A stretch of 64,000 bases of DNA from Mytilus galloprovincialis (Eukaryota): positions 33,976,757 to 34,040,756 of the forward strand of contig NC_134842.1 of assembly GCF_965363235.1 (NCBI RefSeq), read 5' to 3'. Made by a program: the position numbers and the translations under genes. Every line of letters starts with the position of its first letter. The first letter of the stretch is position 1. Under the pieces are notes generated by a model. That model saw only the letters and a list, made by a program, of their open reading frames with translations. It did not search any database and had not been told where the DNA came from. Of the stretch, positions 5,526 to 24,177 are shown in pieces.

Positions 5526-5662
5526 ATGTCGACATCAAGACGGGGAGACGAATCAATATACAGAATCCCTCCTTATTTTTACCTCCATGTTCTAGACCAG
5601 AACCTCAATGTAACAAGACTTGAAATTGGTCCACAGACATTTGTCAGACAAGACAATGAAAA
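5526..5662 (+). CDS. MVP: MVP exon 1 (coding part): [45 protein letters not shown] + K split (phase 2 end)
   Basis: ATG at 5526 in a strong Kozak context (ccaccATGt). It is the first ATG after an in-frame TGA at 5484. Matches human MVP residues [36 protein letters not shown]. Donor gtaagt at 5663. Confidence 0.8.
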
Positions 5663-6049
5663 GTAAGTATAACTATACCCTATTTATTCCCGTTAGTAGA
5701 ATGTCTGCCTAGATAAATTTTCTGGTGCATATCCTCCTCACACTATTCCATCAGAATAAATATCTCAAAAAGAAAATAAAAAAGTTTTATGGATTTTTTT
5801 TACACCAAAAGTCAGAGTACACTTGAAGTGAAAATTACCCAATGTTGTATGAAACTATTTATTTTTAGAGTATCATAGAATTAACAACTAAAGATACTAG
5901 TAACACGTTTTGGAATGGCAAGATTTTCTTGCATTTCATTTGTCAGATAGGCCAGACCATGTTCAACCAGATATTAATCTGACAGGATATATTCTTAAAA
6001 GTCAATACCGTAATAAGCGGATACAAATATTGCGCATTGATATTTACAG

Positions 6050-6245
6050 AGTGGTATATGGACCAGAGCGTATGATCACAGTGCCCCCAAGGCATTATTG
6101 TATCGTAGAAAACCCTGTACTAAAGGACAAAGAATGTAAAGTTGTCTTTGACGAAAGTGGACAGGCCAAACTTGTACATGCTGACCAGGAGATTAGATTG
6201 GCACAGGATCCTTTCCCACTGTACCCCGGGGAAATACTGAAACAG
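6050..6245 (+). CDS. MVP: MVP exon 2: (K)[65 protein letters not shown]
   Basis: Acceptor tatttacag|a at 6049/6050 completes the split AAA codon. Matches human [23 protein letters not shown]...[23 protein letters not shown]. Donor gtatga at 6246. Confidence 0.88.
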
Positions 6246-6555
6246 GTATGATATTTGTGGCTATAGGTTCAAGTTTTGATATAACAATTAACAGAACAAA
6301 GGAGTTACAATAATTAAAGTCGAAAATATATGAGTTGTTTTGATTTCAGCTTTTGGGCACGATTTCCCAGTAAACAGTTATTTTGAGCATTTAGCCAGTA
6401 AATCCAGTAATATATAAGTAATCAGGGATAATAATTTAATTTTTCCAATAATACATGATGCAGTTAAGGGAAAAATGTTATATTGATCACTTATTGACTT
6501 TCAATGATATAACATCCACGGATGACTTATTCGTTGTAACCCATAAAAGGCAGTG

Positions 6556-7140
6556 ACCGATTTGCTTTTTCTCCTTTTAAGTGTTGGTTACTGGTCTTAA
6601 CCATCCCTTTTGTCAGTGGTAGCAGATAATTTAATTCCCTCCCTTGTTATTTGAAGGTTGTAGCTCCCTTAAAAGCAGTTGATTTGATTTTTTCCATTTA
6701 ATTGATGTTTATTGGTTTCAACAGTCCCCTGACAGTGGTAGCTACATATTTGATTTCCTCCCTCTTTGCTTGAAGGTTGAAGCTGTTCTATAAGCAACTG
6801 ATTTGATTTGACCCTCCAAGTGTTGTTAATTGGTTGTAACCCTCCCTTAACTGTAGTAGCACCTGATTTAGTTATCTCCTTATTTGTTTGTTGTAGCCCT
6901 GCCCTGACTGTAGTTGCCACTGGTTTCGGCATCTTCTTTTTTGTTTATTGGTTGTTAAAAGTTTTAGGAGCTAATTTAATTTCCTTCCTTGTTGATGATA
7001 AGTATACCACCGTTAAAAATGGTAGCATTTTATTTGATTTTTACCATTGTGAATTAAAGGTGGAAACCCTTGATATTAGTAGCAGCCGATTTGAATTTCT
7101 CATTTGTTCATATGTTCTTAGGTTGTAACCTCCCTGAAAG
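6556..7140. repeat. Intronic minisatellite (about 60-bp half-units / 120-bp dimers, ~9-10 units). The last unit supplies the 3' splice site and first ~8 codons of MVP exon 3
   Basis: Recurrent motif ggttgtaaccctccct.aa..gtggtagca....tttgatttcctcccttgtt..ttgaaggttgtagc. The terminal copy ttaggttgtaacctccctgaaagtggtagcagccaa is the exon-3 acceptor plus [10 protein letters not shown]. Confidence 0.7.
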
Positions 7141-7472
7141 TGGTAGCAGCCAACTCAGCTCTTCGGCTCAGAGCTATTCTAGACTTTGAAGATGACGATG
7201 AGGAAAAGAGAACAGCTGGGGATGAGTGGCTATTTGAAGGACCAGGAACATATATCCCAAGGAAAGAGGTTGTTATTGAGGAGACTGTCAGAGCCACAGT
7301 CATTAGACCTAACCAGGCCATTAGACTGAGGGCTAGGAAGGAGACTATTGATAGACAAGGTGTTGCTAGGGTAACTGGTGAGGAATGGCTGGTGAAGAAG
7401 ACCGGAGCTTATCTCCCAGGAGCCTATGAAGAAGTTGTAGATGTTGTCAACGCCTATGTTCTAACAGATAAG
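7122..7472 (+). CDS. MVP: MVP exon 3: [117 protein letters not shown]
   Basis: In-frame TAG at 7119-7121 is the AG of acceptor ttcttag|gtt. Matches human [26 protein letters not shown]...[19 protein letters not shown]...RVTGEEWLV...VILTEK. Donor gtaaat at 7473. Confidence 0.88.
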
Positions 7473-7812
7473 GTAAATATAGTTCCAATCAGTGGAATGA
7501 CAATAAAAAGAAGATAAATTGATCTTTGATCTATTGGTGCATATTTCATATTTCTTTTGTTGATGTGATCGTTTGAATTTTCGTATTTAAAAAATATTTT
7601 GCATGTGTATTTAAATTTGCGGAGGAATAAATAGATGATAAACTAGTACACCATAAAAACGTTATATAAAATAGAGAAAGAAACTGTAGCATAATAGGAA
7701 CAAACAATTAAATATTTCTTAGAGTTATCTGGTCATATTAATCACCTTTCAAATACTAGTAATGTACAACGTAATTAGACAAGACATTATCATCTAATTT
7801 GTTATCGTGCAG

Positions 7813-7938
7813 AAAGCCCTCCATATGATATCATTGAGAACATTTAAAGACGACTTTGGTGTAACAAGAAAGAATGGAGAGGAATGGTTGATCAAAATGA
7901 CAGACACAGAAACACACATACCTAATGTGTATGAAGAG
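7813..7938 (+). CDS. MVP: MVP exon 4: KALHMISLRTFKDDFGVTRKNGEEWLIKMTDTETHIPNVYEE
   Basis: Acceptor tcgtgcag|aaa. Matches human [42 protein letters not shown]. Donor gtatgt at 7939. Confidence 0.88.
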
Positions 7939-8250
7939 GTATGTACTGATGTAACAGGGAATGAAATATGGAATAAACACTTATTGTTTTCCCTTTATGA
8001 ATAAAAGAAAAACGTTTCTGGGGAACACATCTTCACTTTGATTTCTTAAAATCCTTTCCTTACTTCCTTTCTATTTCACTTTTATTCAACAAAATATGAT
8101 TCTGACTCAGTGCAGTTCATACTCATGCACTCTTCCGAGTTTCATTTTACAAGTTATGAAAATATTCAATTTGAGTACAGCTCAGATTCGCTTAATTTCT
8201 GGTCAGAAGAAGTACCGATTGAGTCAAATAGAGTTCTGATCAGATTATAT

Positions 8251-8320
8251 GGAAATTCAATTGAATTGAGCAGAAGAGCTGAGTTGGCTGCTACCACTTG
8301 AATGCTCAATTCAATTCATT
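8251..8320. repeat. Small hairpin whose loop carries a perfect 27-nt inverted copy of the exon-3 5' end (8274-8300 = reverse complement of 7138-7164). It is flanked by a 14-bp stem (attcaattgaattgagca / tgctcaattcaatt).
   Basis: Seen directly. It explains the shared peptide [10 protein letters not shown] in track ORFs 7118-7321(-) and 8110-8301(+). Confidence 0.8.
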
Positions 8321-8513
8321 TTACTGGACAAGAAAAAAAAATCAAGCAAGTCTTTTCTACATTTGGTTTTCCGTTGAATACCTCAAATAAGTGATGCCCA
8401 AAACAGGTCAATCCACAGTCTTCATACTAAGCAATAGACCAATACTTAAGTAATTGCCATTGTTTTTATACGACCGCAAAATTTGAAAAATTTTTCGTCG
8501 TATATTGCTATCA

Positions 8514-8542
8514 CGTCGTCGTCGTCGTCGTCGTCGTCGTCC
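8514..8542. repeat. (CGT)9 microsatellite at the 5' end of element copy A. Shorter (CGT)n at 11083-11098 and 22875-22905 in copies B and C.
   Basis: Seen directly. It generates the poly-Arg run in the spurious ORF 8408-8623(-). Confidence 0.9.
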
Positions 8543-8555
8543 GAATACTTTTAGT

Positions 8556-9165
8556 TTTCGCACTCTAACTTGAGTAAAAGTGAATAGAAATCTATGAAAT
8601 TTTAACACAAGGTTTATGACCACAAAAGGAAGGTTGGGATTGATTTTGGGAGTTTTGGTCCCAACATTTTAGGAATTAGGGGCCAAAAAGGGCCCAAATA
8701 AGCATTTTCTTGGTTTTCGCACTATAACTTTAGTTTAAGTTAATAGAAATCTATGAAATTTTGACACAAGGTTTATGACCACAAAAGAAAGGTTGGTATT
8801 GATTTTGGGAGTTTTGGTTCCAACAGTTTAGGAATTAGGGGCCAAAAAAGGGCCCAAATAAGCATTATTCTTGGTTTTCGCACAATAACTTTAGTTTAAG
8901 TAAATAGAAATCAATGAAATTTAAACACAATGTTTATGACCACAAAAGGAAGGTTGGTATTGATTTTGGGAGTTTAGGTCCCAACAGTTTAGGAATTAGG
9001 GGCCAAAAAGGGACCCAAATAAGCATTTTTCTTGGTTTTCGCACCATAACTTTAGTATAAGTAAATAGAAATCTATGAAATTTAAACACAAGGTTTATGA
9101 CCATAAAAGGAAGGTTGGTATTGATTTTGGGAGTTTTGGTCCCAACAGTTTAGGAATAAAGGGCC
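8556..9165. repeat. Satellite, ~160-163-bp unit x ~3.7 (ttttcgcac.ataactt.agt.taagt.aatagaaatctatgaaatttaaacacaaggtttatgaccacaaaaggaaggttgg.attgattttgggagttttggtcccaacagtttaggaattaggggccaaaaagggcccaaataagcatt...)
   Basis: Unit starts at 8556, 8719, 8879 and 9042. The same satellite is at 11125-11400 (copy B) and 22935-23215 (copy C), and an inverted fragment at 22665-22715. Confidence 0.85.
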
Positions 9166-9712
9166 CAAAGGGTCCAAAATTAAACTTTGTTTGATTTCAT
9201 CAAAAATTGAATAATTGGGGTTCTTTGATATGCCGAATCTAACTGTGTATGTAGATTCTTAATTTTTGGTCCCGTTTTCAAATTGGTCTACATTAAGGTC
9301 CAAAGGGTCCAAAATTAAACTTAGTTTGATTTTAACAAAAATTGAATCCTTGGGGTTCTTTGATATGCTGAATCTAAAAATGTACTTAATTTTTTTATTA
9401 TTGGCCCAGTTTTCAAGTTGGTCCAAATCGGGGTCCAAAATTAAACTTTGTTTGATTTCATCAAAAATTGAATAATTGGGGTTCTTTGATATGCCAAATC
9501 TAACTGTGTATGTAGATTCTTAATTTTTGGTCCCGTTTTAAAATTGGTCTACATTAAAGTCCAAAGGGTCCAAAATTAAACTAAGTATGATTTTAACAAA
9601 AATTGAATTCTTGGGCCTCTTTGATATGCTGAATCTAAACATGTACTAAGATTTTTGATTATGGGCCCAGTTTTCAAGTTGGTCCAAATCAGGATCCAAA
9701 ATTATTATATTA
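9164..9712. repeat. Satellite, ~133-bp unit x ~4 (ggtccaaaattaaactttgtttgatttcatcaaaaattgaataattggggttctttgatatgc.gaatctaa...ttggtc.acatt.aggtccaaagg)
   Basis: Periodicity 9164/9298/9432/9566. Also present at 11405-11690 and 11880-12120 in copy B, and 23200-23960 in copy C. Confidence 0.85.
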
Positions 9713-9713
9713 A

Positions 9714-9930
9714 GTATTGTGCAATAGCAAGAAATTTTCAATTGCACAGTATTCAGCAATAGCAAGAAATCTTCAATTGCACAGTATTGTGCAATAGCAA
9801 GAAATCTTCAATTGCACAGTATTGTGCAATAGCAAATATTTTCAATTGCACAGTATTGCACAATAGCAAGAAATATCTAATTGCACAATATTGTGCAATA
9901 GCAAGAAATTCCAATTGGATTTCAATTGGA
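9714..9930. repeat. 35-bp tandem repeat x ~6 in which every unit is itself a hairpin (tattgTGTGCAATagcaagaaat.ttcaATTGCACAg)
   Basis: Seen directly. 8-bp complementary arms tgtgcaat/attgcaca within each unit. The same array is at 11693-11880 in copy B. Confidence 0.85.
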
Positions 9931-10597
9931 GTTATCTTTCTTTGTCCAGAATAGTAGTTGAATCAACTTAAATCATTGTTTTATACAATATACAATGTAT
10001 ATTCACTTTTACTACCAACTGATAGATTAAAACAATCTTTACCATTCAGTGATAGCAAGCACTTTTTTTACATTTTAATATTTTATGATGTATTTAAATG
10101 AGTAGTTATTGTTGCAAACTTCATTAGAAATTTGAATTGAGATCAGTTTTGAAATAAGGGAAAGGGGGATGTGAAAAAAAAATTGGGGGGTCAATTTTTT
10201 TCATTTCAGATTTCATAAATAAAAAGAAAATTTCTTCAAACATTTTTTTGAGAGGATTAATATTCAACAGCATAGTGAATTGCTCAAAGGCAAAAAAAAA
10301 TTTTTTAAGTTCATTAGACCACATTCATTCTGTGTCAGAAACCTATGCTGTGTCAACTATTTAATCACAGTCCAAATTTAGATCTGAATCCAGCTTGAAT
10401 GTTGTGTCCATACTTGCCCCAACCGTTCAGGGTTCAACCTCTGCGGTCGTATAAAGCTGCGCCCTGCGGAGCATCTGGTTGAAACTTAACGCCTACTGAA
10501 AAGAAATGTTAATGGTGCGATGGTTGAAAAACAGTTTCCAAGTTTTCTAATTGACCACAAAGACATTTTTTGTAATATACTTACGGTTTGATTTCAG

Positions 10598-10708
10598 GTT
10601 GTTGGAGTCGTCAACATCACCACACTTACCACAAGACAATATTGTATCATTCTTGACCCTTCCGATGAACATGGCAGACTACAACTGGGTAGAAAGAAAT
10701 TAGTTAAG
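10598..10708 (+). CDS. MVP: MVP exon 5: [37 protein letters not shown]
   Basis: Acceptor gatttcag|gtt; donor aag|gtaaat. Matches human [37 protein letters not shown]. Not in the ORF track because it lacks an ATG and is short. Confidence 0.85.
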
Positions 10709-11042
10709 GTAAATACAATGTTAGATGAATTAGCATAGATAATATTCTGTATAACTAAGTTTCATCAATGTATGCTATTGCATAGTATATAACACGTTAA
10801 TATTAATAAATTGGCATGCAACATGTTTATGTCAATAAAGTATTTTGAACCGTGACGAAAACGCCCTGTTATTATGTCATATGTACGGTGTATTTCTTAT
10901 TGCACCATCTCTAAAAGAATACTTAGTAATTGGCCGTTTGAACTTTCAAAATCTAAAGAATCATGGGTAATTTCATTGTTCGTACCCCAAAATGAAAATA
11001 ACGTCACGTCATTGGTTGATTTCCATTGTTTATAATATTTTT

Positions 11043-12708
11043 ATACGACCGCAAACGGTAGTATATTGGTATATGACGTTGGCGTCGTCGTCGTCGTCCG
11101 AAGACACATCGGTTTTCGCACTATAACTTTATTTTAAGTGAATAGAAATCTACGAAATTTAAAAACAAGGTTTATGACCACAAAAGGAAGGTTTGGATTG
11201 ATTTTGGGAGTTTTGGTCCTAACAGTTTAGGAATTAGGGGCCAAAAAAGGGCCCAAAATAAGCATTTTTCTTGGTTTTCGCACAATAACTTTAGTATAAG
11301 TAAATAGAAATCAATGAAATTTAAACACAAGGTTTATGACCACAAAAGGAAGGTTTGGATGGATTTTGGGAGTTTTGGTCCCAACAGTTTAGGAATTAGG
11401 GGGTCCAAAGGGTCCAAAATTAAACTTTGTTTGATTTTATCAAAAATTGAATAATTGGTTTTCTTTGATATGCCGAATCTAACCGTGTATGTAGATTCTT
11501 AATTTTTGGTCCTGTTTTAAAATTGGTCTACATTAAGGTCCAAAGGGTCCAAAATTAAACTTGATTTTAACAAAAAATTAATTCTTGGGGTTCTTTGATA
11601 TGCTGAATCTAACATGTACTTAGATTTTTGATTATGGGCCCAGTTTTCAAGTTGGTACAAATCGGGGTCCAAAATTATTATATTAAGTATTGTTCAATAG
11701 CAAGAAATTTTCAATTGCACAGTATTGCGCAATAGCAAGAATTCTTCAATTTGCACAGTATTGTGCAATAGCAAGAAATATCTAATTGCACAATATTGCA
11801 CAATAGCAAGAAATTTTCAATTGCACAGTTTTGAGCAATAGCAAGAAATATTCAATTGCACAGTATTGTCCCGTTTTCAAATTGGTCTACATTAAGGTTC
11901 AAAGGGTCAAAAATTAAACTTTGAAAAAAATTGAATATATGGGGTTCTTCAATATGCTGAATCTAACCATGTATTTAGATTTTTAATATTTGCGCCCGGT
12001 TATCAAATTGGTCCACTTTGAGGTTTAAAGGGTCTAAAATTGAACATTATTTACTTTTATCAAAATTGAATTCTTGGGGTTCTATGATATGCTGAATCTA
12101 ACCATGTATTTAGATATTGGACCATAATAGGTAAATGTCCAATTTAGAATTTTTAAGTTTTTAAGTTCAAGTTCTTAGACCACATTCATTCTGTGTCAGA
12201 AACCTATGCTGTGTCAACTATTTAATCACAATCCAAATTCAGAGCTGTATCAAGCTTAAATGTTGTGTCCATACTTGCCCCAACTGTTCATGGTTAGACC
12301 TCTGCGGTCGTATGAAGCTGCGCCCTGCGGAGCATCTGGTTGATATTTTGGCCCGGTTATCAAATTGGTCCACATTGAGGTCTAAAGGGTCCAAAATTGA
12401 ACTTTATTTGATTTCATCAAAAATTGAATTCTTGGGGTTCTTTGATATGCTGAATCTAACCATGTATTTGTATTTTGGATATTGGACCATAATAGGTAAA
12501 TGTCCAATTTAGAATTTTTAAGTTTTTAAGTTCAAGTTCTTAGACCACATTCATTCTGTGTCAGAAACCTATGTTGTGTCAACTATTAAATCACAATCCA
12601 AATTCTGAGCTGTATCAAGCTTGAATGTTGAGTCCATACTTGCCCCAACTGTTCAGTGTTCGACCTCTGCGGTCGTATAAAGCTGCGCCCTGCGGAGCAT
12701 CTGGTTAA
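11043..12708 (+). mobile_element. Helitron/Helentron-like element copy B (in MVP intron 5) with a tandemly duplicated 3' terminal module (two complete 3' ends ending at ~12341 and ~12708)
   Basis: Same 5' terminus TATACGACCGCAAACGG plus (CGT)n. The 3' end ...ctctgcggtcgtat.aagctgcgccctgcggagcatctggtt occurs twice ~367 bp apart, each preceded by the same ~330-bp 3' module (gaccacattcattctgtgtcagaaacctatg.tgtgtcaactatt.aatcaca.tccaaatt...). Confidence 0.6.
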
Positions 12709-12978
12709 CCAATCACGAAGTTTTGGCGTACACTTTTGAAAATATTACCCAGGATGCATTAGATTCTGAAACGGCGAATTGTCAATTAACAAGTCCGCGT
12801 TCAGATCAGCATCTTTACATTGTGTATTTTACAAAAGACATTCTTTTTCCTCAATGTCAAGGCAACTCAACAGCTGAAAGCTGATCTTTAACTTAACTTT
12901 AACGTTATCATCGAGGGCATCTTTCTTAATTCCCCGAGTATATAATTATTCTTATTTTATATAATTGTATTTTTATAG

Positions 12979-13104
12979 GGTGAGTGTTCCTTCTTTTTGT
13001 TACCTGGAGAACGATTTGAGAGAGGTATCCAGAATGTCTATGTACTAGGAGAAGATGAAGGTGTTATTCTACGAGCCACAGAATCATTCATTGATAAAGC
13101 TGCT
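12979..13104 (+). CDS. MVP: MVP exon 6: [42 protein letters not shown]
   Basis: Acceptor ttttatag|ggt; donor gct|gtgagt. Matches human [39 protein letters not shown]. Confidence 0.85.
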
Positions 13105-13705
13105 GTGAGTTGAACTGTGAACACTATTAAGTATTGATATCACGTGTTTCTTCTTTTTGTGATATGATTGGTTGTCCATACTATAAAACAAAACTTTAAC
13201 CAAATGATTAACGACCATTAAAAGTGAACACAGAAAATTGCATATTCTTGTCACCACGCTTCGTAATGTAAAGCCTGAATGAATGCTAAAGTGTTTATTC
13301 TCAAACGTTACAAGTTACTGTGGATTCATTATTTTCGTGGATACCAATTTTCGTGGTTTGAGGAAAACTTGCATATTCGTGGATATTTAATTTCGTGGTT
13401 TTGACAAAGTATGCATATATTCCTTTAGAAAATTTGCAATTCGTTGAATATTTAAATTCGTGGTTTCCCGGTACCCACAAAATCGACGAAAATTGGTATC
13501 CAACGAATAATAATGAATCCACGTTAGTAGTTATTCTGGGAACAGTCAACACTTTCATTAGTGATGAATGTTAAAATAAGTTTTGAACAGTTTGTCAATT
13601 ATTTCTGATATTGTGTGTCTGATATAAAATCCAAATGTTAATTGATATGTTTCGTTTATTTTGTTTCCCATTATGTATTTCTATTGATATTTTTTCTGTT
13701 TCCAG

Positions 13706-13855
13706 AAGGTAGAACGAAAACCAGGGGATAAATGGATGATTCGGGGACCAGCCGAATACGTTCCTCCTGTGGAGGTAGAGGTGACAATGAAGAGAACTGC
13801 ACTACCACTAGATGAAAATGAGGGTATCTATGTCAGATGTATTAAAACTGGAAAG
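13706..13855 (+). CDS. MVP: MVP exon 7: [50 protein letters not shown]
   Basis: Acceptor tttccag|aag; donor aag|gtatgt. Matches human [50 protein letters not shown]. Confidence 0.88.
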
Positions 13856-14113
13856 GTATGTCATACAGTTTCTATGTTCCACAAATAATCATATACATGT
13901 GTATTTTATGTGTATTTTTCTTAAAGATGTCAGTCAGTTGATAGTCTCATATTATGTAATGAAGTTCTATCAAACATCTATGTGTATAAAGCAAAATCAT
14001 TTAAGACATCAAATGTTATTTTCGGTGGTCTATAAGAATATAACTGAATAGAACTGTGAATTGAGCATATATATTTGTTTCCTTGTGATATCAAATATAA
14101 ATACACATTTTAG

Positions 14114-14355
14114 GTCAGAGCTGTAACTGGAGAGACCTACATGTTAAATCAGGATGAGGAACTATGGGCTAAAGAACTTTCTCCTGCAGTCGAGACTCTC
14201 CTTGCTGAGGCTAAAAACCCACAGGCCTTTGGTGAGAGAGGACCAAAACCAGGAAGTGAGGCTTCTAAACCACGTGACAAAACACGTGTGATCACTTTCC
14301 GAGTTCCACACAATGCTGCTGTACAGATTTACGATTATAAAGAAAAGAAAGCAAG
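14114..14355 (+). CDS. MVP: MVP exon 8: [80 protein letters not shown] + R split (phase 2 end)
   Basis: Acceptor attttag|gtc; donor ag|gtatat. Matches human [30 protein letters not shown]...[28 protein letters not shown]. Confidence 0.88.
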
Positions 14356-14595
14356 GTATATTTATAAAATTTAATAAAGTTAATAATTTAGTAAGATTCA
14401 ATGTAAGCATTAATTTTTATGTTTAGAATTGATAATGTCATCATAATACTGTTCTTGTACCTAACTTCAATTCGTGAAAGAGATTTGATTAGTAGTAGTC
14501 TGTTTATTTGAGCAATTCAATGTCTTAACAAGATCCTGATATGTAAATCATGTGATAAAATTTTAAGTTATCTTTATTTTTGCTTTTCTTAACAG

Positions 14596-14938
14596 GGTTG
14601 TTTTTGGTCCCGAGTTGGTTTTATTAGGTCCTGATGAACAATTCACGAAGCTTAGCCTTTCTGGTGGCAAACCAAAGAAAAACAATGTCATTAAATCTTT
14701 ATGTCTGTTTCTGGGGCCGGACTTCAGTACTGACATCATTACTGTAGAAACATCTGACCATGCAAGACTGTCATTACAGCTGTCGTACAACTGGCACTTT
14801 GAAATTGAAAGTAAAGAGGATAAAGTAGAGGCTGCTAAGATTTTCAGTGTACCAGATTTCATTGGAGATGCCTGCAAGGCTATAGCTTCCAGAGTCAGAG
14901 GTGCCGTAGCACAAGTACAGTTTGATGACTTCCATAAG
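14596..14938 (+). CDS. MVP: MVP exon 9: (R)[114 protein letters not shown]
   Basis: Acceptor ttaacag|g completes the AGG codon. Matches human [27 protein letters not shown]...[35 protein letters not shown]...[32 protein letters not shown]. Donor gtaagc at 14939. Confidence 0.9.
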
Positions 14939-15251
14939 GTAAGCATTATCTTTATACAGCAAATGGTCTGGTTTTAGGAATATTAAATTCGAGTGAGGGC
15001 ATACGAAACCTGAAACATTTCCCTAAATGCATGATGAGTGTAAAACTTTATCAAAATTGGTGTGTCCGAAGCGCTTTTTATGCCCCGCCTTTTTGAGTTA
15101 TGTCCCTTTATAACATTACATGCTAGCGGGGACATCATCTGTGTCCCTATGGACATATTCCCCATTTATCTTGATTGACCTCCATCATAAAAAACGTAAG
15201 AGCCTTTAAAATCCAATGTCATCTAAAAAGGAATACATTCTTTTGTTTTAG

Positions 15252-15463
15252 AATTCTGCAAGAATCATCAGATCTTCAGTATTTGGTTTTGACGAGAAAG
15301 GAAAAGTTCGAGGAGCTTTTAGATTCCCACAGAACAACTTGGTATTCACCAGTATTGATATTCAATCTGTTGAACCTGTAGATCAGAGAACAAGAGATGC
15401 CTTACAGAAATCTGTACAACTAGCCATTGAAATCACAACAAACTCACAGGAAGCTACTGCAAG
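15252..15463 (+). CDS. MVP: MVP exon 10: [70 protein letters not shown] + R split (phase 2 end)
   Basis: Acceptor ttgttttag|aat; donor ag|gtgagt. Matches human NSARIIRTAVFGFET...[34 protein letters not shown]. Confidence 0.88.
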
Positions 15464-16092
15464 GTGAGTAACTCAATAGAAATATGTAAAGCTAGCCATT
15501 GAATGCACATTTTACTCACGGGAAGCCGCTGAAAGGTAGGTTAGTTTGTCAACTTTTGTAATTAGTCACGACAAACTGAAGCTGAACCATATTCGATCGA
15601 TACAATCCTAGACATTTTCTAGGTGTAGTACACTACTGTTGCCTTGGAATTGATTCAGAAGTACATCATACATGTGTTAATGAATGTTGCACGCCTGCTA
15701 GATCTAATTGATCTTCAGAAGTAATATTGTTTAACCGTTGTGGACTGTACTAGAAGATATACAAAATTTATACTCGTACCAACATGGTTAGTGACACATA
15801 GACATATTGGGTATAAATGGCTCTGAACCAACAATATGTGGTCCAGATCATAAATGTCAGAAGTCGGAATAAACTGTTTACAGAGCGTGCAAATTTGGAA
15901 AAACAATATCCATAGAAACAATATTTTCTGAATAATTAACTTATCTGAAAACGTTTAATGTTGAAGATCTGATTTTGATGAATATTAAGTCTATACCAAA
16001 AAAAAATGAATATTATACCAATTCGTGTTTATACTTATTGTATAGTTGAAGCATGAACTATTATGTGTCTGAATGCCTTCAAATGGTTATGT

Positions 16093-16678
16093 CAAAGGAG
16101 TAGGTCCGGTAAGGACCGATTTTGGCCTCAAATTTCAGTTTCATCTGACGAAAGATTTTGACCACTTTTTAAACACTTAAGTGTTTATTTCATATGATGC
16201 AATTAATTTATGTGAAAGATTTTAACTTATTAAGTCATTAAAAACGATCCGATTCTGGCTCAAATATGAGAAATCTACCAAATATGCGAAAAATTGTCAC
16301 TTTTCAGATGGTTTTTGTCAAAAACGAAAGTGGCCGCATCCGTGTTCATCCTCAATCTTTATATATGTTATGTATTATCATTAAATACAACTTCCATTTC
16401 AATATTTTGGATGAACACGAATGCGGCCACTTTCATTTTACACGGAAACCGTCTAAAATTTAACTAAAATGCTGGAATTGTGAAGATTTCAGTAATTTAG
16501 CATGAATTAATGGTGCTAGTTCTCAATATATGTGCATTGTATTGTCATTAAGAGCCCATATTTATGTAGCAGAACCTTTCTACTATCCAATAAATGACTA
16601 AAAGTTTACATTTTAACAATTTTGTAAAACTGCTATATTTTGGGGCCAAAAAGGGGTCTTACTGGACCTACTCCTTTG
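16093..16678 (+). mobile_element. 586-bp MITE, copy 1 (inside MVP intron 10). ~35-bp imperfect TIRs caaaggagtaggtccggtaaggacc...ggtcttactggacctactcctttg. It also has an internal 26-bp-arm palindrome (gaaagtggccgcatccgtgttcatcc ... ggatgaacacgaatgcggccactttc).
   Basis: Terminal inverted repeats and the internal palindrome seen directly. No credible coding capacity. Second copy at 19701-20286 in opposite orientation. Confidence 0.75.
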
Positions 16679-16890
16679 ATGAGAAACGTAATATGTATAT
16701 TACATAACCAAATGAACTTATACCGAATAGTTTTATGTGGAAACTCTTCTTAGCCAGAAAGAACATTTTTTATCATGACCTCTGTCTGTTAAGACTGATG
16801 GATACAATTTTAATTCATACTTTTGCATTATGTTATTTGATGAAGATTTAATTCATAACTATTACTCTAAGTTTTCTTTTTAAATCTTAG

Positions 16891-17134
16891 ACATGAAGCA
16901 GAAAGATTAGAACAGGAAGCTAAAGGAAGATTAGAGAGACAGAAGATTTCAGATGAAGCAGAAGCCGAAAAATCCAGGAGACAGTTGTTGGAATTACAGG
17001 CAAACAGTGCTGCAGTAGAAAGTACTGGTCAGGCTAAAGCAGAGGCACAGTCCCGAGCTGAAGCTTCTAGGATTGAGGGTGAGGCAGCTGTAGACCAGGC
17101 CAAACTGAAATCACAGGCAATGAAAATTGAATCA
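16891..17134 (+). CDS. MVP: MVP exon 11: (R)[81 protein letters not shown]
   Basis: Acceptor aaatcttag|a completes the AGA codon; donor tca|gtaagt. Matches human [81 protein letters not shown]. Confidence 0.88.
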
Positions 17135-17519
17135 GTAAGTAGCATGGTTCATGTAAATTTTTACTGGAATTTGATGGCATAAGTGGTTAATAGGTGATTT
17201 GCTAAATCATTCAGATTTGACAACTTCATTGTTTAATTGTGTTTGATGTAGTTGTGAAGAATAGCCCACACACAAACTTAAATTTAAATCATTTCAGTTT
17301 AAAGTCGAGTTTATAATGGTGCTGGTTCCAAGTTTGTATATGTACCATTTTCTGTTTTGGCACAGTCCTTTTATTATCTGAAATTCTCTTTTGGGTGATC
17401 ATAAGAACCTTCGATTCATGTTACAACAAAACTACATGCTATCTATTCATTGAACTCAACAAAGCTGACAAGTTTTATTATTAATGATAACGTTAGTACA
17501 ATATAAAATCTTATTTTAG

Positions 17520-17861
17520 GAATCTGAATTGGAAAGACTTACACAAGCAAGAGAGGCAGAACTAGCATATGTCCGAGAACAAGATGAAATAGAACTAAGC
17601 AAATCTAGGGAAATGTCAAGCATTGAAACCACCAAATTCAAGAACATGGTGGACGCAATTGGAGCAAATACATTGGCAACCATGGCGTCGGCTGGACCAG
17701 ACCAACAGGTCCGTATGTTGCAGTCCCTGGGCCTGAAATCCACCTTAATCACGGACGGTAGCACACCTATTAATCTGTTTAATACAGCTAATGGATTGAT
17801 TGGAGGTATGATGCCAGCAAAGAGGCGAAATCGGAATGACGACGATGATTGTTATGAATAA
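17520..17861 (+). CDS. MVP: MVP exon 12 (terminal, includes TAA stop): [113 protein letters not shown]
   Basis: Acceptor cttattttag|gaa. Matches human EAELQRVQ...[58 protein letters not shown]. Stop TAA at 17859-17861. The C-terminal tail after NTANGLIGG is short and lineage-specific, so a further small intron at ggtatg (17807) cannot be excluded. Confidence 0.8.
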
Positions 17862-22852: not shown

Positions 22853-24177
22853 CAAACGGTCGTATAATATTGGTATGACTTTGGCGTCGTCATCGTCGTC
22901 GTCGTCGTCCGAAGACACATCGGTTTTCGCACTATAACTTGAGTTTAAGTGAATAGAAATCTGTGAAATTTAAACACAAGGTTTATGACCACAAAAGGAA
23001 GGTTGGGATTGATTTTAGGAGTTTTGGTCCCAACAGTTTAGGAATAAGGGGCCAAAAAGGGCCCAAATAAGCATTTTTCTTGTTTTTCGCACAATTACTT
23101 TAGTATAAGTTAATAGAAATCTATGAAATTTTAACACAAGGTTTATGACCACAAAATGAAGGTTTGGTTTTATTTTGGGAGTTTTGGTCCCATCGAATTA
23201 GAGGCCAAAAGGGTCCAAAATTAAACTTTGTTTGGTTTCATCAAAAAATGTATTATTGGGGTTCTTCGATATGCCAAATCTTACCGTGTATTCAGATTCT
23301 TAATTTCTGGTCCTGTTTTCAAATTGGTCTACATTAAGGTCCAAAGGGTCCAAAATTAAACTCAGCTTGATTTTAACAAAAATTGAATTCTTGGGGTTCT
23401 TTGATATGCTGAATCTAAACATGTACTAAGATTTTTGATTATGGGCCCAGTTTTCAAGTTGGTTTAAATCGGGGTCCAAAATTAAACTTTGTTTGATTTC
23501 AACAAAAATTGAATCATTGGGGTTCTTTGATATGCTGAATCTAAACATGTATTAAGATTTTTGCTTATAGACCCAGTTTTCAAGTTGGTCCAAATCGGGG
23601 TCCAAAATTAAACTTTGTTTGATTTCAACATTAATTGAATCCTTGGGGTTCTTTGATATGCTGAATCTAAAAATGTATTTATATTTTTTATTATAGTCCC
23701 AGTTTTCAAGTTGGTCCAAATCGGGGTCCTTAATTAAACTTTGTTTGATTTCAACCAAAAATGAATATATGGGGTTCCTTGATATATGCTGAATCTAACC
23801 ATGTATTTATATTTTTGATATTTTGGCCCGGTTATCAAATTGGTCCACATTGAGGTCTAAAGGGTCCAAAATAGAACTTTATTTGATTTCATCAAAAATT
23901 GAATTCATTGGGTTCTTTGATATGGTGAAACCATATATCTAGATTTTGGATATTGGACCATAATAGGTAAATGTCCAATTTAAAATGTTTAAGTTTTTAA
24001 GTTTAAGTTCTTAGACCACATTCATTCTGTGTCAGAAACCTATGTTGTGTCAACTATTTAATCACAATCCAAATTCAGAGCTGTATCAAGCTTGAATGTT
24101 GTGTCCATACTTGCCCCAACTGTTCAGGGTTCCACCTCTGCAGTCGTATAAAGCTGTGTCCTGCAGAGCATCTGGTT
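22853..24177 (+). mobile_element. Helitron/Helentron-like element copy C (downstream of MVP), same termini and internal satellites as A and B. Its 3' end shows CpG-to-TpG/CpA changes relative to A and B.
   Basis: 5' end ttttatacgaccgcaaacggtcg plus (CGT)n. 3' end ctctgcagtcgtataaagctgtgtcctgcagagcatctggtt, versus ctctgcggtcgtataaagctgcgccctgcggagcatctggtt in A and B. Confidence 0.6.

What the first reader, a model, noticed from the sequence alone, without database searches (positions are those of the whole stretch)
6556..7166. An intronic minisatellite runs into, and provides, the exon-3 splice acceptor and first codons
The ~585-bp array in intron 2 is built of ~60-bp units containing gtggtagca and ggttgtaaccctccc motifs. 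Its final unit is ttcttaggttgtaacctccctgaaagtggtagcagccaactcagc, which is the 3' splice site (tag at 7119-7121) and codons [12 protein letters not shown] of exon 3. Upstream units such as ttggttgtaaccctcccttaactgtagtagcacc are about 75% identical to it. Either the minisatellite arose by repeated duplication of the intron/exon junction, or the exon start was exonised from the satellite. Both possibilities create multiple cryptic acceptor-like sequences upstream of the real one.
Basis: seen in the sequence. Interest (0 to 1): 0.55.

Follow-up and report, generated by a model that had tools for sequence, protein, structure and literature searches.

The report
Decayed splice-junction minisatellite in vault gene
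A stretch of about ten worn-down tandem copies of one intron/exon boundary sits just upstream of the real boundary in a major vault protein gene; it is a real example of a rare but already described kind of repeat ("mirage"), most likely a harmless by-product of DNA slippage.

Summary
Window 6559-7151 holds 10 head-to-tail units of 51-69 bp. The last unit (7088-7151) is the authentic junction: 34 nt of intron ending in TAG, plus the first 30 nt of coding exon 3 of a major vault protein (MVP) gene. A profile built only from the upstream units finds this held-out junction unit full length (E 3.7e-6). It is the only held-out hit with E below 1 in 64 kb. A profile of the exon-like halves alone has its best window hit exactly at 7122-7150.

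The direction of origin is settled. The exon's first codons align without gaps to vertebrate MVP, and the same phase-0 intron position occurs in distant relatives with short, repeat-free introns. So the array was copied from the junction. The exon was not born from the satellite.

All upstream copies are dead. None keeps a YAG acceptor, and all run into stop codons. Relatives about 85% identical in the exon carry a 2-unit version or none.

This matches "mirages", the boundary-spanning minisatellites of amphioxus genes; the human F7 IVS7 VNTR is the 5'-site counterpart. A second, 2-unit boundary duplication sits at a donor site of the same gene (15406-15549).

Verdict: a new member of a known kind, of modest interest.

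The parts
5526..17861 (+). Major vault protein (MVP) gene. ATG at 5526, stop at 17859-17861, at least 12 coding exons.
   Evidence: tblastn with human MVP written from memory gives collinear hits for residues 4-850 at 5547-17804. The start codon and exon 1/2 borders were read. The last ORF runs 17529-17861. Pfam Vault_2 and Vault match exons 2 and 3.
6050..6245 (+). Coding exon 2. It ends ...[12 protein letters not shown], followed by the donor CAG|gtatga.
   Evidence: Sequence read. Pfam Vault_2 E 1.8e-26. Blastn to exon 2 of relatives.
6246..7121 (+). Intron 2, phase 0, 876 nt. The 5' third (6246-6525) is unique AT-rich sequence. The 3' two thirds are the array.
   Evidence: The homologous intron is 392-393 nt in relatives L003, L006 and L007.
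6526..6558 (+). Possible remnant of a further unit (U0): ATTCGTTGTAACCC...GCAGTGACC.
   Evidence: 13/14 match to U5 ATTGGTTGTAACCC (family D7). Only 3.9 bits against the profile, reached by 3 of 200 shuffles. Fails leave-one-out (E 6.4).
6559..7087 (+). Nine intronic pseudo-junction units: U1 6559-6627, U2 6628-6680, U3 6681-6746, U4 6747-6799, U5 6800-6864, U6 6865-6921, U7 6922-6972, U8 6973-7030, U9 7031-7087. Each has a T-rich spacer (GATTTGATTTCCTCCCTTGTT...) followed by an exon-like part (GGTTGTAAC...GTGGTAGCAGC). Two subtypes exist: A (U1, U3, U5) and B (U2, U4, U8). In the 5' part they form dimers of about 119 bp.
   Evidence: U7 is too degenerate to be detected on its own.
7088..7151 (+). 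Junction unit U10, the source copy. It comprises the last 34 nt of the intron and the first 30 nt of exon 3 ([10 protein letters not shown]). The intronic part holds a likely branch point CTCAT with A at 7102, a pyrimidine tract, and TAG at 7119-7121.
   Evidence: As a held-out unit it hits the profile of the other units full length (E 3.7e-6) and scores best of all units in leave-one-out. The exon half alone is the top hit in the window. The branch point is inferred from the sequence only.
7122..7472 (+). Coding exon 3, 117 codons, equivalent to MVP residues 108-224 of vertebrates. Donor AAG|gtaaat.
   Evidence: PDB phmmer E 4.8e-61. Pfam Vault E 2.4e-37. 431 homologues, several named major vault protein.
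15406..15549 (+). Second, independent boundary duplication in the same gene. It consists of two 72-bp units spanning the donor of exon 15252-15463. The real donor is CAAG|GTGAGT at 15463/15464. The pseudo-donor is AAAG|GTAGGT at 15535/15536.
   Evidence: Blastn of exons against the masked gene, E 3.8e-7. 78% identity over 60 nt at spacing 72. Sequence read. Absent from relatives L026, L005, L030 and L010.

Best explanation
This is an old, decayed 'mirage': a minisatellite made by tandem duplication of a roughly 60-bp segment that straddled the 3' splice site of MVP intron 2. The segment held about 30 nt of intron end and about 30 nt of exon start.

Inferred history: the first duplication placed a second junction copy upstream of the real one. 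Further slippage or unequal exchange, partly in dimers of about 119 bp, expanded it to about 10 units. The 3'-most unit stayed under selection as real coding sequence with the real branch point, pyrimidine tract and TAG, so it still resembles the ancestral sequence. The upstream copies drifted, lost their acceptor YAG and acquired stop codons.

The array now simply lengthens the intron, 876 nt against about 392 nt in relatives. It most likely has no function. Splicing uses the last unit because it alone has an intact 3' splice site next to a real exon.

Shown here: the array, its extension into the exon, the direction of copying, and the decay of the copies. Inferred: the slippage mechanism, neutrality, and correct splicing in this species.
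For: Array and junction membership:
- Held-out profile hit on 7089-7150, E 3.7e-6, the only such hit in 64 kb.
- Leave-one-out tests.
- The profile of exon-like halves alone gives its top hit at 7122-7150.

Direction of copying:
- Gapless alignment of the exon start to vertebrate MVP 109-224.
- The same phase-0 intron position in L005 and L016-L019, with no repeats.
- The intron-unit profile recognises MVP coding sequence in the cDNA-like relative L011 and in L001.

Junction unit closest to the consensus of the others: best leave-one-out score, 23.4 bits.

Decay: no YAG at any homologous position, and stops within 22 codons in every unit.

Copy number differs between lineages:
- Relatives L002-L009 have a 2-unit version at 59-60 bp spacing.
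- L001 has none detectable.

Not a dispersed element: no other copy in the window. No Rfam or Pfam signal in the array.

Precedent: amphioxus 'mirages' are described in the same terms in PMC3087553 and PMC3902484. The human F7 IVS7 VNTR is described in PMC1557585.
Against: - No transcript data exist for this species, so silence of the pseudo-acceptors and correct use of 7121/7122 rest on homology alone.
- The intronic half of the junction unit is not significant on its own (the half5 profile has no hit there). That the original duplicated segment began near 7088 therefore rests on the full-length alignment and the head-to-tail register.
- Units are far more diverged (55-74%) than published mirages (81-100% in BflGb6).
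- U7 and U0 fail on their own.
- Whether the 2-unit version in relatives is inherited or arose independently cannot be decided, because the introns are otherwise unalignable (third-codon-position identity is only 0.59-0.62).
Confidence: 0.85

Rival explanations
1. The exon start was recruited (exonised) from a pre-existing intronic satellite, so the first 10 codons are satellite-derived.
For: Similarity alone is symmetric and cannot give a direction.
Against: The 10 codons are orthologous to MVP residues conserved from vertebrates to distant invertebrate-like relatives, with no gap. The intron position Q|xVTxLK is shared by relatives without any array. The consensus of the intronic units matches MVP coding DNA of other species.
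Confidence: 0.02
2. Chance resemblance of T-rich, low-complexity intron sequence to the exon start.
For: Optimal global alignment of shuffled 60-mers of this composition already gives 56 +/- 4% identity, with a maximum of 66%. Several unit pairs lie in that range. TRF misses most of the array.
Against: Profile E-values of 3.7e-6 (whole unit) and 2.9e-4 (exon half) over 128 kb of search space, with no false hit below E=1. The conserved blocks are GGTTGTAAC and GTGGTAGCAGC, not pyrimidine runs. Spacing is regular at 57-61 and 118-121 bp.
Confidence: 0.02
3. The array is functional. As a cluster of decoy 3' splice sites or repeated binding sites for a splicing factor, it tunes the efficiency or timing of intron-2 removal and thereby MVP output, for example through NMD-targeted isoforms from AAG pseudo-acceptors.
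For: Four units keep an AG with a good pyrimidine tract (pyrimidine fraction 0.60-0.85), and all resulting isoforms would carry premature stops. A junction copy also persists in a lineage separated by heavy synonymous divergence.
Against: The units are decaying at roughly neutral levels, and U7 is almost gone. Copy number ranges from 1 to 10 among relatives, and L001 lacks the array. In amphioxus, mirages are reported not to disturb splicing. No transcript evidence is available.
Confidence: 0.07
4. Assembly artefact: a short repeat mis-expanded by the assembler.
For: Ebner et al. noted a mis-assembled mirage in the amphioxus draft genome.
Against: The units differ from each other by 26-45% and carry many indels. 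They are therefore distinct sequences that no assembler would generate from one copy. Independent contigs of relatives show the same type of structure.
Confidence: 0.02

Closest known systems
[quoted passage not shown] Examples are Adh3 (Canestro et al. 2002, cited in PMC3087553), globins BflGb6 and BflGb9 (PMC3087553), and PGBD5 and troponin C (PMC3902484).
   Same: Head-to-tail units of minisatellite size. Each comprises the 3' end of an intron plus the 5' part of the next exon, and the authentic junction is the terminal unit. BflGb6 is the same arrangement at an acceptor. Some but not all copies keep AG. Copy number differs between haplotypes or lineages. The same gene can carry duplications at both 5' and 3' boundaries; here a second one lies at 15406-15549.
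   Different: The units here are much more diverged (55-74% against 81-100% in BflGb6) and show an A/B dimer substructure, so this is an old, eroding example. The host gene is MVP. The organism is not identified and may not be a cephalochordate. No RT-PCR or polymorphism data are available.
Human F7 intron 7 37-bp VNTR, whose first unit spans the exon 7/IVS7 boundary (PMC1557585).
   Same: A minisatellite whose terminal unit is a real splice junction, so silent pseudo-splice sites line up beside the real one. The 72-bp duplication at 15406-15549 is the direct counterpart, with a real donor followed by a pseudo-donor.
   Different: F7 concerns the 5' splice site, with pseudo-sites identical in sequence and shown experimentally to be functional but not chosen. 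The main array here concerns the 3' splice site, and its pseudo-sites are mutated.
Internal gene duplications that span splice sites, and intron creation by tandem duplication (Rogers model; Zhuo et al. 2007; Gao & Lynch 2009; all cited in PMC3087553).
   Same: The same mutational class: a small tandem duplication inside a gene that includes a splice signal.
   Different: Those models concern the birth of new introns or alternative exons. Here no new intron or exon is demonstrated, and the copies were absorbed into the existing intron.
Tandem (NAGNAG-type) alternative acceptors.
   Same: More than one acceptor-like site upstream of one exon.
   Different: NAGNAG sites lie 3 nt apart and both are used. 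Here the sites lie 57-69 nt apart within whole duplicated junction units, and none keeps YAG.

Membership tests
Mirage (boundary-spanning minisatellite) | Tandem, head-to-tail repeat with minisatellite-size units (published range 10-160 bp). | tested here: met
   10 contiguous units of 51-69 bp at 6559-7151. Spacings are 57-61 and 118-121 bp.
Mirage (boundary-spanning minisatellite) | The repeat unit contains both intronic and exonic sequence of one exon/intron boundary, and the authentic boundary is one of the units. | tested here: met
   Held-out junction unit 7089-7150 matches the profile full length (E 3.7e-6). The exon half alone is the best hit in the window. The intron half is aligned but not significant on its own.
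Mirage (boundary-spanning minisatellite) | Many but not all copies retain the AG/GT splice dinucleotide. | tested here: met
   AG is retained in U2, U4 and U9, and in U8 with a 1-nt shift. It is lost in U1, U3, U5, U6 and U7. All retained sites are AAG.
Mirage (boundary-spanning minisatellite) | Regular splicing is not disturbed (shown by RT-PCR in amphioxus). | not testable with these tools
   Only indirect evidence. Transcript-like ORFs of relatives (P0007, P0010, L011-L015, L037) join ...LKQ to VVTPLK.
Mirage (boundary-spanning minisatellite) | Length instability or polymorphism of the cluster. | not testable with these tools
   No population data. Between lineages the copy number is about 10 (window), 2 (L002-L009) and 1 (L001).
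Mirage (boundary-spanning minisatellite) | High identity between units through concerted evolution (81-100% in BflGb6). | tested here: not met
   55-74% identity between units. I take this as a matter of age, not of kind, because the PGBD5 repeats are also described as imperfect.
Exonised repeat (exon sequence derived from a repeat) | The exonic segment is absent from orthologues that lack the repeat. | tested here: not met
   The 10 codons are present and aligned in vertebrate MVP and in all relatives sampled, with or without the array.
Dispersed repeat or transposable-element-derived satellite | Copies of the unit occur at other, unrelated loci. | tested here: inconclusive
   No copy elsewhere in the 64-kb window or in 44 fetched loci, apart from MVP exon-3 junctions. 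The rest of this genome could not be searched.

The most novel reading that the evidence does not exclude
Boundary-spanning minisatellites may be a recurrent source of change in gene structure at this very junction, outside cephalochordates. A junction copy exists in at least two lineages separated by near-saturated synonymous divergence. It may have arisen independently, since L009's upstream copy shares GTAGT with its own exon rather than the GTTGT of the window.

A further relative (L010) has the intron shifted 18 nt into the region covered by the repeat unit, with what looks like the dead original donor (AGGTGCTCAAATAGgt) left inside the intron. If these observations are linked, the locus would be a natural series illustrating the 'mirage' route to intron sliding or gain proposed by Ebner et al.
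Probability: 0.12. Interest if true: 0.6.

Novelty: new member of a known kind. Interest (0 to 1): 0.3.

Why it matters
The finding is a clean, statistically supported case of a minisatellite born from a splice junction, and the direction of origin can be proved from orthologues. In the papers found here, such structures are described for amphioxus genes and for human F7. They are invoked as raw material for new introns, intron sliding and cryptic splicing.

An old example with decayed pseudo-acceptors shows the usual fate: the copies are absorbed into the intron and the upstream splice signals are lost. A second boundary duplication in the same gene hints that the phenomenon may be common in this genome.

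For annotation, such arrays are traps for splice-site predictors and for aligners of short exonic reads. The finding does not change what is known about MVP or about splicing.

Tried and rejected
- TRF alone under-reports the array, finding 2.1 copies. Profiles were needed.
- Extending the array upstream of 6559 gave only a 3.9-bit remnant at 6526-6542. Nothing was found in 6246-6525 or downstream in 7152-7900.
- A profile of the intronic half of the unit alone is too T-rich and short to be significant anywhere.
- Aligning the window intron to the introns of relatives, to decide whether the first duplication is shared, gave no significant matches. Pairwise unit identities cannot resolve orthology either, because the null is already 56%.
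- RNA gene or structured RNA: no Rfam hit at gathering score in the window, and only sub-threshold noise in 6200-7200. No tRNAs.
- Coding potential of the array: the 87-aa (minus strand) and 106-aa (plus strand) ORFs have no Pfam match.
- Species identification failed. The best protein relatives are unnamed metagenome or Logan fragments at no more than 97% amino-acid and about 85% nucleotide identity. From memory only, the composite (CGT)n plus ~160-bp repeat elements in neighbouring introns resemble bivalve repeat-carrying elements. This was not tested.
- The original mirage paper (PMC117041) is not held, so its content is cited second-hand from PMC3087553.
Only the resulting alignments are relied on, together.

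Full report
**Context.** The window carries a major vault protein (MVP) gene on the + strand, from ATG 5526 to the stop at 17861.
- tblastn with human MVP gives collinear hits for residues 4-850.
- Exon 2 (6050-6245) matches Pfam Vault_2 and exon 3 (7122-7472) matches Pfam Vault.
- Exon 3 hits solved MVP structures at E 4.8e-61, with residues 2-117 aligned gaplessly to residues 109-224.
- Intron 2 is 6246-7121, phase 0...GEILKQ|gtatga ... ttcttag|[12 protein letters not shown].

**Is the array there?** Yes, but it is degenerate.
- TRF reports only 6833-6950 (period 57, 2.1 copies).
- Seed-extension finds direct-repeat families spaced 57-58 and 118-121 bp from 6568 to 7151.
- I cut 11 candidate units (U0 6500-6558 through U10 7088-7151). 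MAFFT aligns them over their full length, giving the consensus GATTTGATTTTCTCC..TTGTTTATTGGTTGTAAC....TTAAAAGT.GTAGCA.CT.

**Non-circular tests.**
- A profile built from U0-U9 only finds the held-out U10 at 7089-7150, covering model positions 2-58, at 23.4 bits and E 3.7e-6. Outside the array, nothing in the 64 kb scores below E=1 on either strand.
- In leave-one-out, U10 has the best score of all units. U2, U3, U4 and U5 are clearly significant. U1, U6, U8 and U9 are weaker (E 0.01-0.19). U7 and U0 fail.
- A profile of only the exon-homologous halves of U0-U9 has its best hit in the whole window exactly at the exon start, 7122-7150 (E 2.9e-4).
- The resemblance is therefore carried by GGTTGTAAC...GTGGTAGCAGC and not by pyrimidine runs.
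- The repeat register stops at 7151. Nothing downstream (7152-7900) or upstream of 6526 matches.

**Internal structure of the array.**
- Units fall into an A type (U1, U3, U5; 71-74% alike) and a B type (U2, U4, U8; 71-72% alike). The two types alternate as dimers of about 119 bp in the 5' part.
- Whole-unit identities are 55-74%. Shuffled sequences of this composition already align at 56 +/- 4%. The profile statistics, not the pairwise identities, are therefore the evidence.

**Direction of origin.** The ten codons inside the repeat are ancient MVP codons.
- They align without gaps to vertebrate MVP.
- Transcript-like ORFs from relatives read GEVLKQ|VVTPLKV (P0007) and EEVKV|VVTPLRV (P0010).
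- Intron-less cDNA-like contigs (L011-L015, L037) show the same joined sequence.
- Distant relatives with short introns of 55-60 nt (L016-L019), and L005, have the intron at exactly this phase-0 position with no repeat.
- The profile made solely from the intronic units recognises the exon start of other species, including the intron-less L011 (433-463, E 3e-4).
- The intronic units are thus copies of the junction, and exonisation from a satellite is excluded.
- U10 is the unit closest to the consensus of the others. This fits a conserved source surrounded by independently drifting copies.

**State of the copies.**
- At the position homologous to the acceptor, U2, U4 and U9 have AAG|G, and U8 has AAG shifted by one base.
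- U1, U3, U5 and U7 have TG. U6 has TT. U0 has TC.
- None keeps the YAG of the real site.
- Read in the exon frame, every pseudo-exon meets a stop within 22 codons.
- The last unit holds a plausible branch point (CTCAT, A at 7102, 19 nt from the AG) and the first AG after it is the real one. This is inferred from the sequence only.

**Relatives.**
- Contigs encoding exon 3 at 95-97% amino-acid identity are about 85% identical in nucleotides. Third-codon-position identity is 0.59-0.62, so they come from other species and the introns are unalignable.
- In the L002-L009 group the intron is only 392-393 nt. It ends with exactly one extra junction copy 59-60 bp upstream of the real one. In L003, AAAGTGGTAGCAGC occurs twice at spacing 59. 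In L009 there is a 15/16 match at spacing 60.
- L001 shows no detectable copy.
- The junction duplication therefore exists in at least two lineages, and the expansion to about 10 units is specific to the window's lineage among those sampled.
- Whether the first duplication is shared or recurrent cannot be decided. L009's copy is closest to its own junction (77%), which fits either independent origin or gene conversion.

**Comparison with what is known.**
- The structure matches the published description of 'mirages'. [quoted passage not shown] They are known from amphioxus Adh3, globins, PGBD5 and troponin C. They are reported not to disturb splicing, to retain AG/GT in many but not all units, and to vary in copy number (PMC3087553; PMC3902484).
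- The human F7 IVS7 37-bp VNTR is the 5'-splice-site analogue (PMC1557585).
- Against the defining features, the tandem arrangement, the boundary-spanning unit and the partial retention of AG are met. Undisturbed splicing and length instability are untestable here. High inter-unit identity is not met, which I read as age.
- I therefore file this as a new, eroded member of a known kind.

**Further observations.**
- Comparing every MVP exon with the masked remainder of the gene revealed a second boundary duplication. The last 58 nt of exon 15252-15463, its donor and 13 nt of intron are repeated once in tandem at a 72-bp period (78% identity). This creates a pseudo-donor at 15535/15536. Relatives that have this intron lack the copy.
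- In relative L010 the intron homologous to intron 2 lies 18 nt further 3' (LK|VV instead of Q|xV). A 14/15 copy of the ancestral exon-2 end followed by gt lies inside that intron. This is suggestive of boundary duplication in intron sliding but is unproven.

**Verdict.** The most likely reading is a functionless, slippage-born junction minisatellite whose upstream splice signals have decayed (confidence about 0.85). A regulatory decoy role is not excluded, but nothing here supports it.

Noticed in passing
window 15406-15549: Second 'mirage' in the same MVP gene. A 72-bp tandem duplication spans the donor of exon 15252-15463 (78% identity over 60 nt). The real donor is CAAG|GTGAGT at 15463/15464 and the pseudo-donor is AAAG|GTAGGT at 15535/15536. 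Read-through from the real donor meets TGA at once. Relatives with this intron (L026, L005, L030, L010) lack the copy.
   Followed up: yes
L010 9630-10010: In this relative (81% amino-acid identity) the homologous intron is shifted 18 nt (6 codons) downstream: ...LKQAVAPLK|gtgagc...cacag|VVVAN. Inside the intron, 101 nt from the exon copy, lies AGGTGCTCAAATAGG followed by tttat. This is a 14/15 match to the ancestral exon-2 end plus donor, and may be a relic of the old 5' splice site.
   Followed up: partly
window 25300-64000: About 24 head-to-tail copies of a 1748-bp unit, running to the end of the window. About six copies are a 1291-bp deletion variant. Periods were inferred from the spacing of TRF rows. 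There is no ORF above 90 aa, no Rfam family and no tRNA, so this looks like a long-monomer satellite.
   Followed up: partly
window 8514-9930, 11083-12706, 22885-24013: Three copies of a composite repeat-bearing element. Two lie within MVP introns and the third lies downstream of the gene. Each has a (CGT)n microsatellite, then about 161-bp tandem repeats (x3.8), then 126-135-bp repeats (x3.9), then 35-bp repeats (x5.9). From memory only, this resembles tandem-repeat-carrying mobile elements of bivalve molluscs.
   Followed up: no
L005 397-1011 (protein P0004): In this relative (83% identity) the ORF runs straight from exon 3 into the next exon (...AYVLTEK|NALHLRATRTF...). The intron that follows exon 3 in the window (from 7473) is therefore absent there.
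   Followed up: no
window 6559-6864: The 5' part of the array is organised as A+B dimers of about 119 bp. 6611-6690 and 6730-6809 are 75% identical. This implies that expansion went on by duplication of already diverged unit pairs.
   Followed up: partly
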